39,096 bases of DNA from sequence record AY264777.1; one strand, given 5' to 3'. The notes below the pieces were generated by a model. It saw nothing but the letters and a program-made list of their open reading frames with translations. It was not told the origin of the DNA and did not search any database. Shown one piece after another: positions 2,330 to 26,385 of this stretch. The position numbers were made by a program, and so were the translations under genes. This DNA is from Escherichia phage T7. Positions within the stretch are counted from its first letter, which is position 1; each line of letters starts with the position of its first letter.

Positions 2330-4981
2330 ATGAACACGATTAACATCGCTAAGAACGACTTCTCTGACATCGAACTGGCTGCTATCCCGTTCAACACTCT
2401 GGCTGACCATTACGGTGAGCGTTTAGCTCGCGAACAGTTGGCTCTTGAGCATGAGTCTTACGAGATGGGTGAAGCACGCTTTCGCAAGATGTTTGAGCGT
2501 CAACTTAAAGCTGGTGAGGTTGCGGATAACGCTGCCGCCAAGCCTCTCATCACTACCCTACTCCCTAAGATGATTGCACGCATCAACGACTGGTTTGAGG
2601 AAGTGAAAGCTAAGCGCGGCAAGCGCCCGACAGCTTTCCAGTTCCTGCAAGAAATCAAGCCGGAAGCCGTAGCGTACATCACCATTAAGACCACTCTGGC
2701 TTGCCTAACCAGTGCTGACAATACAACCGTTCAGGCTGCAGCAAGCGCAATCGGTCGGGCCATTGAGGACGAGGCTCGTTTCGGTCGTATCCGTGACCTT
2801 GAAGCTAAGCACTTCAAGAAAAACGTTGAGGAACAACTCAACAAGCGCGTAGGGCACGTCTACAAGAAAGCATTTATGCAAGTTGTCGAGGCTGACATGC
2901 TCTCTAAGGGTCTACTCGGTGGCGAGGCGTGGTCTTCGTGGCATAAGGAAGACTCTATTCATGTAGGAGTACGCTGCATCGAGATGCTCATTGAGTCAAC
3001 CGGAATGGTTAGCTTACATCGCCAAAATGCTGGCGTAGTAGGTCAAGACTCTGAGACTATCGAACTCGCACCTGAATACGCTGAGGCTATCGCAACCCGT
3101 GCAGGTGCGCTGGCTGGCATCTCTCCGATGTTCCAACCTTGCGTAGTTCTTCCTAAGCCGTGGACTGGCATTACTGGTGGTGGCTATTGGGCTAACGGTC
3201 GTCGTCCTCTGGCGCTGGTGCGTACTCACAGTAAGAAAGCACTGATGCGCTACGAAGACGTTTACATGCCTGAGGTGTACAAAGCGATTAACATTGCGCA
3301 AAACACCGCATGGAAAATCAACAAGAAAGTCCTAGCGGTCGCCAACGTAATCACCAAGTGGAAGCATTGTCCGGTCGAGAACATCCCTGCGATTGAGCGT
3401 GAAGAACTCCCGATGAAACCGGAAAACATCGACATGAATCCTGAGGCTCTCATCGCGTGGAAACGTGCTGCCGCTGCTGTGTACCGCAAGGACAAGGCTC
3501 GCAAGTCTCGCCGTATCAGCCTTGAGTTCATGCTTGAGCAAGCCAATAAGTTTGCTAATCATAAGGCCATTTGGTTCCCTTACAACATGGACTGGCGCGG
3601 TCGTGTTTACGCTGTGTCAATGTTCAACCCGCAAGGTAACGATATGACCAAAGGACTGCTTACGCTGGCAAAAGGTAAACCAATCGGTAAGGAAGGTTAC
3701 TACTGGCTGAAAATCCACGGTGCAAACTGTGCGGGTGTCGATAAGGTTCCGTTCCCTGAGCGCATCAAGTTCATTGAGGAAAACCACGAGAACATCATAG
3801 CTTGCGCTAAGTCTCCACTGGAGAACACTTGGTGGGCTGAGCAAGATTCTCCGTTCTGCTTCCTTGCGTTCTGCTTTGAGTACGCTGGGGTACAGCACCA
3901 CGGCCTGAGCTATAACTGCTCCCTTCCGCTGGCGTTTGACGGGTCTTGCTCTGGCATCCAGCACTCCTCCGCGATGCTCCGAGATGAGGTAGGTGGTCGC
4001 GCGGTTAACTTGCTTCCTAGTGAAACCGTTCACGACATCTACGGGATTGTTGCTAAGAAAGTCAACGAGATTCTACAAGCAGATGCAATCAATGGGACCG
4101 ATAACGAAGTAGTTACCGTGACCGATGAGAACACTGGTGAAATCTCTGAGAAAGTCAAGCTGGGCACTAAGGCACTGGCTGGTCAATGGCTGGCTTACAG
4201 TGTTACTCGCAGTGTGACTAAGCGTTCAGTCATGACGCTGGCTTACGGGTCCAAAGAGTTCGGCTTCCGTCAACAAGTGCTGGAAGATACCATTCAGCCA
4301 GCTATTGATTCCGGCAAGGGTCTGATGTTCACTCAGCCGAATCAGGCTGCTGGATACATGGCTAAGCTGATTTGGGAATCTGTGAGCGTGACGGTGGTAG
4401 CTGCGGTTGAAGCAATGAACTGGCTTAAGTCTGCTGCTAAGCTGCTGGCTGCTGAGGTCAAAGATAAGAAGACTGGAGAGATTCTTCGCAAGCGTTGCGC
4501 TGTGCATTGGGTAACTCCTGATGGTTTTCCTGTGTGGCAGGAATACAAGAAGCCTATTCAGACGCGCTTGAACCTGATGTTCCTCGGTCAGTTCCGCTTA
4601 CAGCCTACCATTAACACCAACAAAGATAGCGAGATTGATGCACACAAACAGGAGTCTGGTATCGCTCCTAACTTTGTACACAGCCAAGACGGTAGCCATC
4701 TTCGTAAGACTGTAGTGTGGGCACACGAGAAGTACGGAATCGAATCTTTTGCACTGATTCACGACTCCTTCGGTACCATTCCGGCTGACGCTGCGAACTT
4801 GTTCAAAGCAGTGCGCGAAACTATGGTTGACACATATGAGTCTTGTGATGTACTGGCTGATTTCTACGACCAGTTCGCTGACCAGTTGCACGAGTCTCAA
4901 TTGGACAAAATGCCAGCACTTCCGGCTAAAGGTAACTTGAACCTCCGTGACATCTTAGAGTCGGACTTCGCGTTCGCGTAA
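2330..4981 (+). CDS. 1: Gene 1, T7 RNA polymerase (883 aa)
   Basis: ORF 2330..4981; full-length single-subunit RNAP; specificity-loop region as recalled for wild type. Confidence 0.98.
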   Translation: MNTINIAKNDFSDIELAAIPFNTLADHYGERLAREQLALEHESYEMGEARFRKMFERQLKAGEVADNAAAKPLITTLLPKMIARINDWFEEVKAKRGKRPTAFQFLQEIKPEAVAYITIKTTLACLTSADNTTVQAAASAIGRAIEDEARFGRIRDLEAKHFKKNVEEQLNKRVGHVYKKAFMQVVEADMLSKGLLGGEAWSSWHKEDSIHVGVRCIEMLIESTGMVSLHRQNAGVVGQDSETIELAPEYAEAIATRAGALAGISPMFQPCVVLPKPWTGITGGGYWANGRRPLALVRTHSKKALMRYEDVYMPEVYKAINIAQNTAWKINKKVLAVANVITKWKHCPVENIPAIEREELPMKPENIDMNPEALIAWKRAAAAVYRKDKARKSRRISLEFMLEQANKFANHKAIWFPYNMDWRGRVYAVSMFNPQGNDMTKGLLTLAKGKPIGKEGYYWLKIHGANCAGVDKVPFPERIKFIEENHENIIACAKSPLENTWWAEQDSPFCFLAFCFEYAGVQHHGLSYNCSLPLAFDGSCSGIQHSSAMLRDEVGGRAVNLLPSETVHDIYGIVAKKVNEILQADAINGTDNEVVTVTDENTGEISEKVKLGTKALAGQWLAYSVTRSVTKRSVMTLAYGSKEFGFRQQVLEDTIQPAIDSGKGLMFTQPNQAAGYMAKLIWESVSVTVVAAVEAMNWLKSAAKLLAAEVKDKKTGEILRKRCAVHWVTPDGFPVWQEYKKPIQTRLNLMFLGQFRLQPTINTNKDSEIDAHKQESGIAPNFVHSQDGSHLRKTVVWAHEKYGIESFALIHDSFGTIPADAANLFKAVRETMVDTYESCDVLADFYDQFADQLHESQLDKMPALPAKGNLNLRDILESDFAFA

Positions 4982-22045: not shown

Positions 22046-22068
22046 TAATACGATTCATTATAGGGAGA
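22046..22068 (+). promoter_or_regulatory. T7 class III promoter phi10 (two substitutions, -9 and -5)
   Basis: taatacgattcattatagggaga followed by the gene 10 leader ccacaacggtttccctctagaaataattttgtttaactttaagaaggagatatacat. Confidence 0.9.
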
Positions 22069-22125: not shown

Positions 22126-23163
22126 ATGGCTAGCATGACTGGTGGACAGCAAATGGGTACTAACCAAGGTAAAGGTGTAGTTGCTGCTGGAGATAAACTG
22201 GCGTTGTTCTTGAAGGTATTTGGCGGTGAAGTCCTGACTGCGTTCGCTCGTACCTCCGTGACCACTTCTCGCCACATGGTACGTTCCATCTCCAGCGGTA
22301 AATCCGCTCAGTTCCCTGTTCTGGGTCGCACTCAGGCAGCGTATCTGGCTCCGGGCGAGAACCTCGACGATAAACGTAAGGACATCAAACACACCGAGAA
22401 GGTAATCATCATTGACGGTCTCTTGACGGCTGACGTTCTGATTTATGATATTGAGGACGCGATGAACCACTACGACGTTCGCTCTGAGTATACCTCTCAG
22501 TTGGGTGAATCTCTGGCGATGGCTGCGGATGGTGCGGTTCTGGCTGAGATTGCCGATCTGTGTAACGTGGAAAGCAAATATAATGAGAACATCGAGGGCT
22601 TAGGTACTGCTACCGTAATTGAGACCACTCAAAACAAGGCCGCACTTACCGACCAAATTGCGCTGGGTAAGGAGATTATTGCGGCTCTGACTAAGGCTCG
22701 TGCGGTTCTGACCAAGAACTATGTTCCGGCTGCTGACCGTGTGTTCTACTGTGACCCAGATAGCTACTCTGCGATTCTGGCAGCACTGATGCCGAACGCA
22801 GCAAACTACGCTGCTCTGATTGACCCTGAGAAGGGTTCTATTCGCAACGTTATGGGCTTTGAGGTTGTAGAAGTTCCGCACCTCACCGCTGGTGGTGCTG
22901 GTACCGCTCGTGAGGGCACTACTGGTCAGAAGCACGTCTTCCCTGCCAATAAAGGTGAGGGTAATGTCAAGGTTGCTAAGGACAACGTTATCGGTCTGTT
23001 CATGCACCGCTCTGCGGTAGGTACTGTTAAGCTGCGTGACTTGGCTCTGGAGCGCGCTCGCCGTGCTAACTTCCAAGCGGACCAGATTATCGCTAAGTAC
23101 GCAATGGGCCACGGTGGTCTTCGCCCAGAAGCTGCTGGTGCAGTGGTTTTCAAAGTGGAGTAA
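22126..23163 (+). CDS. 10: Gene 10A, major capsid protein (345 aa)
   Basis: ORF 22126..23163; MASMTGGQQMG...VVFKVE. Confidence 0.98.
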   Translation: MASMTGGQQMGTNQGKGVVAAGDKLALFLKVFGGEVLTAFARTSVTTSRHMVRSISSGKSAQFPVLGRTQAAYLAPGENLDDKRKDIKHTEKVIIIDGLLTADVLIYDIEDAMNHYDVRSEYTSQLGESLAMAADGAVLAEIADLCNVESKYNENIEGLGTATVIETTQNKAALTDQIALGKEIIAALTKARAVLTKNYVPAADRVFYCDPDSYSAILAALMPNAANYAALIDPEKGSIRNVMGFEVVEVPHLTAGGAGTAREGTTGQKHVFPANKGEGNVKVAKDNVIGLFMHRSAVGTVKLRDLALERARRANFQADQIIAKYAMGHGGLRPEAAGAVVFKVE

Positions 23164-23321
23164 TGCTGGGGGTGGCCTCAACGGTCGCTGCTAGTCCCGA
23201 AGAGGCGAGTGTTACTTCAACAGAAGAAACCTTAACGCCAGCACAGAAGGCCGCACGCACCCGCGCTGCTAACAAAGCCCGAAAGGAAACTGAGTTGGCT
23301 GCTGCCACCGCTGAGCAATAA
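22126..23321 (+). CDS. 10: Gene 10B, minor capsid protein via -1 ribosomal frameshift near the 3' end of 10A
   Basis: Slippery tract ggttttc near 23147-23153; -1 frame open to taa 23319-23321. Confidence 0.55.
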
Positions 23322-23328
23322 CTAGCAT

Positions 23329-23369
23329 AATCCCTTGGGGCCTCTAAACGGGTCTTGAGGGGTTTTTTG
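23329..23369 (+). terminator. Tphi, T7 RNA polymerase terminator (stem variant)
   Basis: aatcccttggggcctctaaacgggtcttgaggggttttttg; GC-rich hairpin plus U-tract. Confidence 0.9.
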
Positions 23370-23386
23370 CTGAAAGGAGAAACTAT

Positions 23387-23977
23387 ATGCGCTCATACGA
23401 TATGAACGTTGAGACTGCCGCTGAGTTATCAGCTGTGAACGACATTCTGGCGTCTATCGGTGAACCTCCGGTATCAACGCTGGAAGGTGACGCTAACGCA
23501 GATGCAGCGAACGCTCGGCGTATTCTCAACAAGATTAACCGACAGATTCAATCTCGTGGATGGACGTTCAACATTGAGGAAGGCATAACGCTACTACCTG
23601 ATGTTTACTCCAACCTGATTGTATACAGTGACGACTATTTATCCCTAATGTCTACTTCCGGTCAATCCATCTACGTTAACCGAGGTGGCTATGTGTATGA
23701 CCGAACGAGTCAATCAGACCGCTTTGACTCTGGTATTACTGTGAACATTATTCGTCTCCGCGACTACGATGAGATGCCTGAGTGCTTCCGTTACTGGATT
23801 GTCACCAAGGCTTCCCGTCAGTTCAACAACCGATTCTTTGGGGCACCGGAAGTAGAGGGTGTACTCCAAGAAGAGGAAAATGAGGCTAGACGTCTCTGCA
23901 TGGAGTATGAGATGGACTACGGTGGGTACAATATGCTGGATGGAGATGCGTTCACTTCTGGTCTACTGACTCGCTAA
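23387..23977 (+). CDS. 11: Gene 11, tail tubular protein A (196 aa)
   Basis: ORF track 23387..23977. Confidence 0.95.
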
Positions 23978-24000: not shown

Positions 24001-26385
24001 ATGGCACTCATTAGCCAATCAATCAAGAACTTGAAGGGTGGTATCAGCCAACAGCCTGACATCCTTCGTTATCCAGACCAAGGGTCACGCCAAGTTAACG
24101 GTTGGTCTTCGGAGACCGAGGGCCTCCAAAAGCGTCCACCTCTTGTTTTCTTAAATACACTTGGAGACAACGGTGCGTTAGGTCAAGCTCCGTACATCCA
24201 CCTGATTAACCGAGATGAGCACGAACAGTATTACGCTGTGTTCACTGGTAGCGGAATCCGAGTGTTCGACCTTTCTGGTAACGAGAAGCAAGTTAGGTAT
24301 CCTAACGGTTCCAACTACATCAAGACCGCTAATCCACGTAACGACCTGCGAATGGTTACTGTAGCAGACTATACGTTCATCGTTAACCGTAACGTTGTTG
24401 CACAGAAGAACACAAAGTCTGTCAACTTACCGAATTACAACTCTAATCAAGACGGATTGATTAACGTTCGTGGTGGTCAGTATGGTAGGGAACTAATTGT
24501 ACACATTAACGGTAAAGACGTTGCGAAGTATAAGATACCAGATGGTAGTCAACCTGAACACGTAAACAATACGGATGCCCAATGGTTAGCTGAAGAGTTA
24601 GCCAAGCAGATGCGCACTAATTTGTCTGATTGGACTGTAAATGTAGGGCAAGGATTCATCCATGTGATCGCACCTAGTGGTCAACAGATTGACTCCTTCA
24701 CGACTAAAGATGGCTACGCAGACCAGTTGATTAACTCTGTGACCCACTACGCTCAGTCGTTCTCTAAGCTGCCACCTAATGCTCCTAACGGCTACATGGT
24801 GAAAATCGTAGGGGACGCCTCTAAGTCTGCCGACCAGTATTACGTTCGGTATGACGCTGAGCGGAAAGTTTGGACTGAGACTTTAGGTTGGAACACTGAG
24901 GACCAAGTTCTATGGGAAACCATGCCACACGCTCTTGTGCGAGCCGCTGACGGTAATTTCGACTTCAAGTGGCTTGAGTGGTCTCCTAAGTCTTGTGGTG
25001 ACGTTGACACCAACCCTTGGCCTTCTTTTGTTGGTTCAAGTATTAACGATGTGTTCTTTTTCCGTAACCGCTTAGGATTCCTTAGTGGGGAGAACATCAT
25101 ATTGAGTCGTACAGCCAAATACTTCAACTTCTACCCTGCGTCCATTGCGAACCTTAGTGATGACGACCCTATAGACGTAGCTGTGAGTACCAACCGAATA
25201 GCAATCCTTAAGTACGCCGTTCCGTTCTCAGAAGAGTTACTCATCTGGTCCGATGAAGCACAATTCGTCCTGACTGCCTCGGGTACTCTCACATCTAAGT
25301 CGGTTGAGTTGAACCTAACGACCCAGTTTGACGTACAAGACCGAGCGAGACCTTTTGGGATTGGGCGTAATGTCTACTTTGCTAGTTCGAGGTCCAGCTT
25401 CACGTCCATCCACAGGTACTACGCTGTGCAGGATGTCAGTTCCGTTAAAAATGCTGAGGACATTACATCACACGTTCCTAACTACATCCCTAATGGTGTG
25501 TTCAGTATTTGCGGAAGTGGTACGGAAAACTTCTGTTCGGTACTATCTCACGGGGACCCTAGTAAAATCTTCATGTACAAATTCCTGTACCTGAACGAAG
25601 AGTTAAGGCAACAGTCGTGGTCTCATTGGGACTTTGGGGAAAACGTACAGGTTCTAGCTTGTCAGAGTATCAGCTCAGATATGTATGTGATTCTTCGCAA
25701 TGAGTTCAATACGTTTCTAGCTAGAATCTCTTTCACTAAGAACGCCATTGACTTACAGGGAGAACCCTATCGTGCCTTTATGGACATGAAGATTCGATAC
25801 ACGATTCCTAGTGGAACATACAACGATGACACATTCACTACCTCTATTCATATTCCAACAATTTATGGTGCAAACTTCGGGAGGGGCAAAATCACTGTAT
25901 TGGAGCCTGATGGTAAGATAACCGTGTTTGAGCAACCTACGGCTGAGTGGAATAGCGACCCTTGGCTGAGACTCAGCGGTAATTTGGAGGGACGCATGGT
26001 GTACATTGGGTTCAACATTAACTTCGTATATGAGTTCTCTAAGTTCCTCATCAAGCAGACTGCCGACGACGGATCTACCTCCACGGAAGACATTGGGCGC
26101 TTACAGTTACGTCGAGCGTGGGTTAACTACGAGAACTCTGGTACGTTTGACATTTATGTTGAGAACCAATCGTCTAACTGGAAGTACACAATGGCTGGTG
26201 CCCGATTAGGCTCTAACACTCTGAGGGCTGGGAGACTGAACTTAGGGACCGGACAATATCGATTCCCTGTGGTTGGTAACGCCAAGTTCAACACTGTATA
26301 CATCTTGTCAGATGAGACTACCCCTCTGAACATCATTGGGTGTGGCTGGGAAGGTAACTACTTACGGAGAAGTTCCGGTATTTAA
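24001..26385 (+). CDS. 12: Gene 12, tail tubular protein B (794 aa)
   Basis: ORF track 24001..26385. Confidence 0.95.
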   Translation: MALISQSIKNLKGGISQQPDILRYPDQGSRQVNGWSSETEGLQKRPPLVFLNTLGDNGALGQAPYIHLINRDEHEQYYAVFTGSGIRVFDLSGNEKQVRYPNGSNYIKTANPRNDLRMVTVADYTFIVNRNVVAQKNTKSVNLPNYNSNQDGLINVRGGQYGRELIVHINGKDVAKYKIPDGSQPEHVNNTDAQWLAEELAKQMRTNLSDWTVNVGQGFIHVIAPSGQQIDSFTTKDGYADQLINSVTHYAQSFSKLPPNAPNGYMVKIVGDASKSADQYYVRYDAERKVWTETLGWNTEDQVLWETMPHALVRAADGNFDFKWLEWSPKSCGDVDTNPWPSFVGSSINDVFFFRNRLGFLSGENIILSRTAKYFNFYPASIANLSDDDPIDVAVSTNRIAILKYAVPFSEELLIWSDEAQFVLTASGTLTSKSVELNLTTQFDVQDRARPFGIGRNVYFASSRSSFTSIHRYYAVQDVSSVKNAEDITSHVPNYIPNGVFSICGSGTENFCSVLSHGDPSKIFMYKFLYLNEELRQQSWSHWDFGENVQVLACQSISSDMYVILRNEFNTFLARISFTKNAIDLQGEPYRAFMDMKIRYTIPSGTYNDDTFTTSIHIPTIYGANFGRGKITVLEPDGKITVFEQPTAEWNSDPWLRLSGNLEGRMVYIGFNINFVYEFSKFLIKQTADDGSTSTEDIGRLQLRRAWVNYENSGTFDIYVENQSSNWKYTMAGARLGSNTLRAGRLNLGTGQYRFPVVGNAKFNTVYILSDETTPLNIIGCGWEGNYLRRSSGI

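What the first reader, a model, noticed from the sequence alone, without database searches (positions are those of the whole stretch)
23329..23369. Tphi terminator stem carries a C->U change at its base
Wild-type Tphi, as in common expression vectors, is ctagcataaCCCCttggggcctctaaacgggtcttgaggggttttttg. The window has ataaTCCCttgggg (23331). The first C of the stem-closing CCCC:GGGG block becomes U, turning a C-G pair into a U-G wobble. That should modestly destabilise the hairpin and could raise read-through into genes 11-12.
Basis: partly seen in the sequence, partly recalled or inferred. Interest (0 to 1): 0.4.

Follow-up and report, generated by a model that had tools for sequence, protein, structure and literature searches.

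The report
Mutagen-induced point change in T7 terminator
The single C-to-T change at the base of the phage T7 Tphi terminator is real, but it is one of about 305 chemically induced mutations in a published laboratory-mutagenised T7 strain, so it is most likely a tolerated passenger mutation that slightly weakens the terminator.

Summary
Observation confirmed. Window 23322-23369 is the T7 Tphi 48-mer with one mismatch, C->T at 23331 (V01146 position 24172, "T-38").

Context changes its meaning. The window is a nearly complete T7 genome from a laboratory-mutagenised lineage. It differs from wild-type T7 by 304-306 substitutions, and 286 of these are G:C->A:T with a strong 5'-purine-G bias. It also has an 819-bp deletion in gene 0.7. 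Its closest record is GenBank AY264778 "T7 isolate P82" (Bull et al. 2003 series), which keeps the Tphi change.

A hit in the Tphi hairpin is expected by chance (0.48 expected; P(>=1) = 0.38).

The physical description is right. C-G becomes U.G, with ddG of +1.8 to +2.6 kcal/mol. With the U-tract excluded, occupancy of the closing pair falls from 0.95-0.98 to 0.31-0.42.

The pair is C-G in 29 of 30 distinct natural Tphi-type hairpins. It lies in the bottom stem, which published work shows is critical. More read-through into genes 11-12 is therefore plausible, but it is untested.

Three things complicate the prediction:
- Docking of antiterminating oligo(G) abortive RNAs is predicted to weaken.
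- The phi10 promoter carries two core mutations.
- T7 RNA polymerase carries nine amino-acid changes.

Verdict: ordinary, low interest.

The parts
23331..23331 (+). The C->T substitution. It corresponds to V01146 24172 and to position T-38 in the numbering of Lee et al. 2010. It is the first C of the bottom-left CCCCUU stretch of Tphi.
   Evidence: The release site T is V01146 24210 (PMC2952870), and 24210 - 24172 = 38.
23331..23362 (+). Tphi terminator hairpin: a 13-bp stem with a 6-nt loop. The outermost pair is now U.G instead of C-G.
   Evidence: MFE structures and energies. The terminator-like site is also called by the pattern scan.
23329..23330 (+). AA flank that can pair with the first two U of the U-tract in free RNA. 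This stacks on the U.G pair and stabilises it.
   Evidence: In the 48-mer fold the stem extends to 15 pairs.
23363..23369 (+). U6 tract followed by the G release position (T).
   Evidence: Sequence. The V01146 terminator point 24210 maps to window 23369. Termination mainly at the G after oligo(U) is reported in PMC2952870.
22046..22068 (+). Class III promoter phi10 (+1 at 22063), which drives the transcription unit ended by Tphi. It carries C-9T (22054) and C-5T (22058).
   Evidence: Positions -9 to -7 and -5 are reported as critical in PMC5937735.
22126..23163 (+). Gene 10A (major capsid protein), with changes T95I, G144D, V178I and A194V. The 10B frameshift extension runs on to its stop at 23319-23321 and carries E->K (23247) and A->T (23289).
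   Evidence: Annotation of P82 shifted by +10; translations; sequence.
23374..23380 (+). Gene 11 Shine-Dalgarno region. G->A at 23380 changes GGAGG to GGAGA.
   Evidence: The same AAGGAGAAACTATATG occurs in natural relatives L036, L037 and L083.
23387..23977 (+). Gene 11 (tail tubular protein A; D165N). It has no promoter of its own and depends on read-through of Tphi.
   Evidence: PMC2952870.
24001..26385 (+). Gene 12 (tail tubular protein B; P148S, T223I, P246S, P463S, G649E). It also has no promoter of its own.
   Evidence: P82 annotation shifted by +10.

Best explanation
The window is an almost complete genome of a laboratory-mutagenised T7 lineage. It is the 'P' line of the Bull et al. 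2003 series, ancestor or sibling of GenBank AY264778 'isolate P82', and most probably the record AY264777. The Tphi C->T at 23331 is one of about 286 alkylating-mutagen-type G:C->A:T transitions. It arose at a hot 5'-GG site and was fixed as a passenger. Shown: its effect on the RNA is to replace the outermost C-G pair of the terminator stem with a marginal U.G pair. Inferred: at the moment of termination, the pair that must pull G(T-7) out of the upstream end of the RNA-DNA hybrid mostly does not form. The stem is then effectively one pair shorter and one nucleotide further from the release site. [quoted passage not shown] The phage tolerates this, since the change was not reverted or compensated locally during later recovery passages.
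For: Origin:
- The window differs from T7+ by 306 substitutions, 286 of them G:C>A:T.
- The strand-collapsed 5' neighbour bias is GG 2.96%, AG 2.11%, CG 0.82% and TG 0.27%.
- G:C>A:T dominance is reported for nitrosoguanidine- or hydroxylamine-treated T7 (PMC6042481).
- Only 26 substitutions separate the window from AY264778 P82, and 300 of 306 are shared.
- AY264774 is tied to Bull et al. 2003 (PMC2680503).
- 0.48 hits are expected in the hairpin.
- The variant is absent from 17 IMG/VR, 45 genome-contig, 40 metagenome and 9 plasmid copies of Tphi, and from 177 of 178 matching phage records.
- The independent K lineage has the wild-type C.

Effect:
- ddG is +2.6 kcal/mol for the 48-mer and +1.8 for the bare stem.
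- The closing pair contributes -1.8 kcal/mol in wild type and +0.5 in the mutant. Its occupancy falls from 0.95-0.98 to 0.31-0.42, with or without 20-200 nt of upstream context.
- The three pairs next to the U-tract are C-G in 29-30 of 30 distinct natural Tphi-type hairpins, while pairs 5-11 vary.
- Bottom-stem weakening by IMP lowers termination from 78% to 9.3% (PMC2952870).

Tolerance: the change is retained in P82, and there is no other change in 22800-23900.
Against: - No measurement of termination exists for this allele.
- In free RNA the AA/UU flanks keep the U.G pair in the MFE structure, so the effect could be negligible.
- The same substitution weakens predicted docking of antiterminating oligo(G) RNAs by 2.3-2.9 kcal/mol, which works in the opposite direction.
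- The polymerase has nine substitutions of unknown effect on termination.
- Near-invariance of the pair in nature could mean a larger, deleterious effect rather than a modest one.
- Identity with AY264777 and the use of nitrosoguanidine in this particular lineage rest on my memory of Bull et al. 2003. That paper is not held in the library, and AY264777 is not in the collection.
Confidence: 0.6

Rival explanations
1. Passenger mutation with no measurable functional consequence. The U.G wobble, stacked on the flanking A-U pairs, preserves the terminator hairpin well enough that termination efficiency is unchanged.
For: - The 48-mer MFE structure is unchanged apart from the wobble.
- Wild-type Tphi already tolerates five G-U pairs (PMC9157156).
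- This is tied for the mildest destabilising transition available in the stem.
- It is retained without local compensation in P82.
Against: - The pair is C-G in 29 of 30 distinct natural hairpins, and none has U.G there.
- When the U-tract is unavailable for pairing, the U.G pair is unfavourable and mostly open.
- The bottom stem is the most sensitive part of Tphi (PMC2952870).
Confidence: 0.22
2. Selected compensation. A leakier Tphi was favoured because transcription reaching genes 11-12 had fallen in this genome. The contributing changes would be the doubly mutated phi10 core, phi9 G+2A, the loss of GGG starts that make oligo(G) antiterminator RNAs, and a weakened gene 11 Shine-Dalgarno.
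For: - phi10 carries C-9T and C-5T, phi9 carries G+2A, and phi3.8 carries G+1A and G+5A.
- Changes at -9 to -7 reduce promoter activity below 5%, and -5 changes also reduce it strongly (PMC5937735).
- Knocking out phi9 and phi10 lowers RNA for genes 9-12 (PMC6068830).
- The gene 11 SD changes from GGAGG to GGAGA.
Against: - The hit is fully expected by chance.
- Lineages passed through bottlenecks fix mutations largely by drift.
- Engineered delta-phi9/phi10 T7 evolved for 160-180 generations acquired no Tphi change (PMC6068830).
- The order of the mutations is unknown.
Confidence: 0.08
3. Net strengthening of termination in vivo. By changing CCCCUU to UCCCUU, the mutation mainly weakens docking of oligo(G) abortive transcripts, which normally antiterminate Tphi late in infection. 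Read-through into genes 11-12 would then fall rather than rise.
For: - Predicted duplex energies for G4-G6 weaken by 2.3-2.9 kcal/mol.
- Antitermination correlates with duplex stability on the 5' half of the stem, and oligo(G) is the most potent class from GGG-start promoters (PMC2952870).
Against: - The second docking site (CCUCU, top-left) and the strongest antiterminators (phi1.5 8-mer, phi6.5 13-mer) are unaffected or little affected.
- Docking of template-encoded GGGA(GA) improves by 0.7-1.2 kcal/mol.
- The hairpin itself is weakened at its critical end.
Confidence: 0.06
4. The change creates an E. coli sigma-70 promoter. CATAAC becomes CATAAT as a -10 element, with CTGCCA as a -35 element 18 nt upstream. 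Transcripts would start inside the hairpin and so escape Tphi.
For: The pattern scan flags 23302-23331 as promoter-like only because of the new T at hexamer position 6.
Against: - It matches only 9 of 12 positions with an 18-nt spacer.
- Such matches occur at chance level in this region (3 found against 1.9 expected).
- From established T7 biology, host RNA polymerase is shut off by gp2 before class III DNA is expressed.
Confidence: 0.02

Closest known systems
Bacteriophage T7 terminator Tphi (class I, hairpin plus U-tract terminator for T7 RNA polymerase; V01146 24163-24210, as used in pET vectors)
   Same: It has the same location between genes 10 and 11. 47 of 48 bases are identical, and the stem-loop, U6 tract and G release site are the same.
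   Different: The outermost stem pair is U.G instead of C-G. This allele was found only in this lineage among about 290 copies examined.
GenBank AY264778, 'Enterobacteria phage T7 isolate P82' (Bull, Badgett, Rokyta, Molineux 2003 series, AY264774-AY264778)
   Same: It shares 300 of the window's 306 substitutions, the same 819-bp gene 0.7 deletion, and the same Tphi, phi10 and gene 11 SD changes.
   Different: P82 has 26 substitution differences. These include reversion of RNAP F546S and Q568H, RNAP D351N->Y, and three new gene 12 changes. It also has a 12-bp deletion in gene 7.3 and two 1-bp deletions. The window looks like its pre-recovery ancestor.
Tphi-type terminators of other T7-like phages (T3-like, Yersinia, Klebsiella and other Autographiviridae)
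   Same: They share the CCCC...GGGG base directly abutting a U-tract upstream of the gene 11 homologue.
   Different: Natural variation is confined to the upper stem and loop, with compensatory changes. None of the 30 distinct sequences has U.G at the closing pair.
Engineered Tphi bottom-stem perturbations of Lee, Nguyen and Kang 2010 (IMP substitution; reversed bottom pairs)
   Same: They affect the same bottom stem and the same CCCCUU (T-38 to T-33) element.
   Different: Those perturbations weaken or alter several pairs at once. Here a single outermost pair is changed, and no measurement exists for it.

Membership tests
T7 Tphi class I terminator | Located between the major capsid gene 10 and tail gene 11 | tested here: met
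   Gene 10A ends at 23163 and the 10B stop is at 23319-23321. The hairpin is at 23331-23362 and gene 11 starts at 23387.
T7 Tphi class I terminator | Stable G+C-rich stem-loop immediately followed by a U-tract | tested here: met
   MFE is -20.2 kcal/mol with z = -3.3. It is followed by U6 then G, and the terminator scan calls it.
T7 Tphi class I terminator | Sequence identity to the reference Tphi | tested here: met
   47 of 48 bases match, with 0 matches in 100 shuffles.
T7 Tphi class I terminator | Conserved CCCC:GGGG bottom stem abutting the U-tract | tested here: not met
   The window has UCCC:GGGG. 29 of 30 distinct natural hairpins have C-G at this pair.
T7 Tphi class I terminator | Actually terminates T7 RNA polymerase, at partial efficiency | not testable with these tools
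   This needs in vitro transcription or RNA mapping. Literature values for wild type are 62-95% depending on the assay (PMC9157156; PMC2952870).
Mutagenised T7 lineage P of the Bull et al. 2003 series | Near identity to a deposited member of the series | tested here: met
   There are 26 substitutions and 19 gap columns against AY264778 P82, compared with 306 substitutions against T7+ and 666 against isolate K.
Mutagenised T7 lineage P of the Bull et al. 2003 series | Alkylating-mutagen spectrum: G:C>A:T with a 5'-purine preference | tested here: met
   286 of 306 substitutions are G:C>A:T. The 5' neighbour rates are G 2.96%, A 2.11%, C 0.82% and T 0.27%.
Mutagenised T7 lineage P of the Bull et al. 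2003 series | Exact identity to the deposited record AY264777 | not testable with these tools
   AY264777 is not in the phage collection. No record matches window 3300-4100 exactly, and the best match is P82 at 99.6%. The paper is not held.
Sigma-70 promoter created de novo | -10 and -35 hexamers with 16-18 nt spacing, occurring above chance | tested here: inconclusive
   CTGCCA, 18 nt, CATAAT gives 9 of 12 matches. The region has 3 such sites against 1.9 expected.

The most novel reading that the evidence does not exclude
The Tphi closing-pair change is not a passive passenger. It is part of a selected rebalancing of late transcription in a genome whose phi10 promoter is dead and whose GGG-start promoters (phi3.8, phi9, phi10) make fewer oligo(G) antiterminator RNAs. 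A constitutively leakier hairpin would replace abortive-RNA-mediated antitermination as the way to supply the promoter-less tail genes 11 and 12.
Probability: 0.07. Interest if true: 0.45.

Novelty: already known. Interest (0 to 1): 0.15.

Why it matters
It matters little on its own. Tphi is one of the best-known terminators, and this allele sits in a published, deliberately mutagenised laboratory genome. The same allele is already public in AY264778.

There are two modest points of value:
- It shows that T7 remains viable with a U.G at a stem-closing pair that is essentially invariant across natural T7-like phages. It does so together with a phi10 promoter mutated at two critical positions. 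This bears on how much slack there is in late-gene regulation.
- The allele would be a clean single-base reagent. It could separate the two proposed roles of the CCCCUU element, namely hairpin closure and docking of antiterminating abortive RNAs.

Tried and rejected
(1) I tried to read Bull et al. 2003 (J Mol Evol 57:241) by DOI, but it is not held. AY264777 is not in the phage collection. The identification of the window as 'isolate P' and of the mutagen as nitrosoguanidine therefore stays an inference from the spectrum, the sister records and my memory.

(2) I looked for point-mutant data on the closing pair.
- The massively parallel T7 terminator study (PMC8783025) tests modifiers and interacting motifs, not this base.
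- The G3 2022 engineering paper (PMC9157156) redesigns whole stems.
- No direct measurement was found.

(3) Literature searches for Tphi mutations arising in T7 experimental evolution found none.

(4) I considered whether the two other substitutions within 100 nt upstream (23247, 23289) alter hairpin formation.
- They remove about 6 kcal/mol of predicted upstream structure.
- They leave hairpin pair probabilities unchanged.
- I rejected them as an influence on hairpin folding. I did not reject them as an influence on efficiency, because upstream context is reported to matter.

(5) A sigma-70 promoter created by CATAAT is at chance level and biologically implausible late in infection.

(6) Sequencing error is rejected, because the descendant P82 carries the same base.

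(7) A natural polymorphism is rejected. There were 0 occurrences in IMG/VR, genome and metagenome scans, with positive controls of 17, 45 and 40 wild-type copies.

Full report
1. THE OBSERVATION

The mismatch is T for C at 23331. The quoted wild-type sequence equals V01146 24163-24210. V01146 annotates the Tphi termination point at 24210, which maps to window 23369. The changed base is therefore V01146 24172, position T-38 in the numbering of Lee, Nguyen and Kang 2010 (PMC2952870).

2. WHAT THE WINDOW IS

A 1.1-kb query around the site is 100% identical to GenBank AY264778, "Enterobacteria phage T7 isolate P82". It is only 99.4% identical to standard T7. I aligned the window to V01146, to T7+ (AY264774) and to isolates P82, K (AY264775) and K115 (AY264776).

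- The window is a whole T7 genome lacking the first 23 nt. It carries an 819-bp deletion in gene 0.7 between short direct repeats.
- It differs from T7+ by 306 substitutions, from P82 by 26, and from K by 666.
- Of the 306 substitutions, 159 are C>T and 127 are G>A.
- Collapsed to the G strand, the per-site rate depends strongly on the 5' neighbour: GG 2.96%, AG 2.11%, CG 0.82% and TG 0.27%.

From my own knowledge, this context bias is the classic signature of N-methyl-N'-nitro-N-nitrosoguanidine. Dominance of G:C>A:T after nitrosoguanidine or hydroxylamine treatment of T7 is stated in PMC6042481.

[quoted passage not shown] That paper is not held. AY264777 is absent from the collection, and no record matches the window exactly where it differs from P82. 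The window is therefore most probably AY264777, the pre-recovery "P" genome. This last step is inference.

3. IS A HIT IN TPHI SURPRISING?

No. Using the genome's own context-specific rates, 0.48 G:C>A:T hits are expected in the 32-nt hairpin, so P(>=1) = 0.38. For the CCCC:GGGG block, 0.22 hits are expected. The site itself is a minus-strand 5'-GG, the hottest class.

Non-coding DNA carries 38 substitutions in 3,518 nt (1.08%). Coding DNA carries 0.73%.

4. WHAT THE CHANGE DOES TO THE RNA

- The 48-mer folds to the same 15-pair structure, at -20.2 kcal/mol instead of -22.8.
- For the bare hairpin, the MFE goes from -19.7 to -17.9 kcal/mol, and the terminal U.G is left open.
- Evaluated explicitly, the closing pair contributes -1.8 kcal/mol in wild type and +0.5 in the mutant. 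Its ensemble probability drops from 0.95 to 0.31.
- With 20-200 nt of native upstream sequence, it drops from 0.96-0.98 to 0.41-0.42. Pair 2 and the rest of the stem are unaffected.
- Among all destabilising G>A or C>U changes possible in the stem, this is tied for the mildest.

5. WHY POSITION MATTERS MORE THAN TOTAL ENERGY

I collected the region upstream of gene 11 homologues from 75 viral contigs, with gp11 identity down to about 55%. Thirty distinct Tphi-type hairpins share a CCCC...GGGG base directly against the U-tract.

- The three pairs nearest the U-tract are C-G in 29, 30 and 30 of 30 hairpins.
- Pairs 5-11 show four to six pair types each, including compensatory changes.
- No natural sequence has U.G at the closing pair.

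I also scanned for the otherwise exact hairpin.

- C was found in all 17 IMG/VR copies.
- The T allele was found in 0 genome-contig and 0 metagenome stretches. The wild-type allele was found in 45 and 40.
- The T allele was in 0 of 9 plasmid records and in only 1 of 178 phage records, namely P82.

Experimentally, Lee et al. found that weakening the bottom stem by IMP at T-12 and T-10 to T-7 reduces termination from 78% to 9.3%. The same treatment of the central stem has almost no effect.

From established structural knowledge, the T7 RNAP elongation complex holds a 7-8 bp RNA-DNA hybrid. I infer that the C(T-38)-G(T-7) pair is the one that must compete with the upstream end of that hybrid. Losing its favourable energy should make hairpin completion less effective. 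This step is inferred, not shown.

6. AN OPPOSING EFFECT

Lee et al. also showed that G-rich abortive transcripts, especially oligo(G) from GGG-start promoters, antiterminate Tphi. They do this by sequestering CCCCUU (T-38 to T-33) and CCUCU in the 5' half of the stem. The effect correlates with duplex stability.

- Predicted docking of G4-G6 to the 5' half weakens by 2.3-2.9 kcal/mol in the mutant.
- Docking of GGGA, GGGAG and GGGAGA improves by 0.7-1.2 kcal/mol, because GGGA pairs with UCCC.
- The phi1.5 8-mer is unchanged.
- The phi6.5 13-mer weakens by 1.1 kcal/mol.

The net in vivo direction is therefore not certain.

7. THE REST OF THE TRANSCRIPTION UNIT IS ALSO CHANGED

- The phi10 core reads TAATACGATTCATTATA, carrying C-9T and C-5T.
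- phi9 has G+2A, phi3.8 has G+1A and G+5A, phi2.5 has G+3A, and phi17 has C+9T.
- PMC5937735 reports that substitutions at -9 to -7 reduce activity below 5% (citing Imburgio 2000), that R756 contacts -9, and that -5 substitutions also strongly reduce activity. phi10 is therefore probably nearly inactive.
- Across both the P and K lineages, these are the only substitutions in any promoter core. All other promoter hits lie at +1 to +6.
- The gene 11 Shine-Dalgarno is GGAGA instead of GGAGG. Some natural relatives have the same variant.
- T7 RNA polymerase carries V137A, P274L, D351N, D366N, T375I, M490I, F546S, Q568H and G624S.
- Lysozyme carries S11F and G117S.

Read-through in this phage therefore cannot be predicted from the hairpin alone.

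8. SELECTION OR DRIFT?

- P82 retains all 38 non-coding substitutions, apart from the terminal base that its record lacks. These include Tphi, both phi10 changes and the gene 11 SD change.
- P82's own changes lie elsewhere. They include reversion of RNAP F546S and Q568H, RNAP D351N->Y, gp12 S465P, A732D and L741R, and a 12-bp deletion in gene 7.3.
- Engineered delta-phi9/phi10 T7 evolved for 160-180 generations acquired no Tphi change (PMC6068830).
- The independent K lineage has wild-type Tphi.

There is thus no positive evidence that the Tphi change was selected. The simplest reading is a tolerated passenger.

9. VERDICT

The feature is real and correctly described. It is an induced point mutation in a well-known element of a published laboratory strain, and it is expected by chance given the mutational load.

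The location of the change makes it more plausible than the small ddG suggests. It remains untested, and the effect on abortive-RNA docking partly offsets it.

Novelty: already known element and publicly deposited allele. Interest: low.

Noticed in passing
window 22046-22068 (phi10; substitutions at 22054 and 22058): The phi10 class III promoter carries C-9T and C-5T, two positions reported as critical for T7 promoter activity. These are the only promoter-core substitutions in either mutagenised lineage (P or K) across all 17 T7 promoters. Both are retained in P82. phi10 is probably nearly dead, which likely matters more for gene 10-12 expression than the Tphi change does.
   Followed up: partly
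window 21025 (phi9 +2), 10339 and 10343 (phi3.8 +1 and +5), 8268 (phi2.5 +3), 33733 (phi17 +9): G>A or C>T changes occur in the initially transcribed sequences of four other T7 promoters. phi9 and phi3.8 lose their GGG start, which should reduce oligo(G) slippage products. Over all 17 promoters (-17 to +6) there are 6 hits against 2.58 expected.
   Followed up: partly
window 2334?-4995 region, gene 1 (substitutions include window 3380, 3966, 4033): T7 RNA polymerase has nine amino-acid changes: V137A, P274L, D351N, D366N, T375I, M490I, F546S, Q568H and G624S. In the recovered descendant P82, F546S and Q568H reverted and D351N became D351Y. This suggests those three were the costly ones.
   Followed up: partly
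window 23380: The gene 11 Shine-Dalgarno is weakened from GGAGG to GGAGA. The same AAGGAGAAACTATATG occurs naturally in some T7 relatives (L036, L037, L083).
   Followed up: partly
window ~2146 (junction): There is an 819-bp deletion inside gene 0.7 (V01146 2169-2987), between imperfect direct repeats AGGC(A/G)CTTGAG. The independent K lineage has a different, overlapping deletion (V01146 1759-2578). This is parallel loss of the early non-essential region.
   Followed up: partly
window 1338 and 12323: Nonsense mutations occur in the non-essential genes 0.4 (W28*) and 4.2 (W59*). The latter is also E534K in the overlapping gene 4A. This matches the 'similar to gene 0.4 / 4.2' misc_features in the P82 record.
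   Followed up: no
window 25387-25393 region (gene 12 codons 463-465): gp12 has P463S in the window, and P82 adds S465P. An unrelated evolved T7 line in PMC6068830 acquired R464M. This is a possible adaptive hotspot in tail tubular protein B.
   Followed up: no
window 23247 and 23289: Two G>A changes occur in the gene 10B frameshift extension (E->K and A->T). Both fall on paired positions of a predicted upstream structure and remove about 6 kcal/mol of it. Upstream context is reported to influence Tphi efficiency.
   Followed up: partly
window 23302-23331: The C>T turns CATAAC into CATAAT, a -10-like hexamer with a weak -35 (CTGCCA) 18 nt upstream. This is a chance-level match and is unlikely to be relevant late in infection.
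   Followed up: yes
L098-L142 (genome-contig hits): The exact wild-type Tphi 36-mer occurs on short contigs (about 0.2-7 kb) in 'genomes' of unrelated taxa such as Streptomyces, Runella, Bacillus and MAGs. This is almost certainly expression-vector contamination of those assemblies.
   Followed up: no
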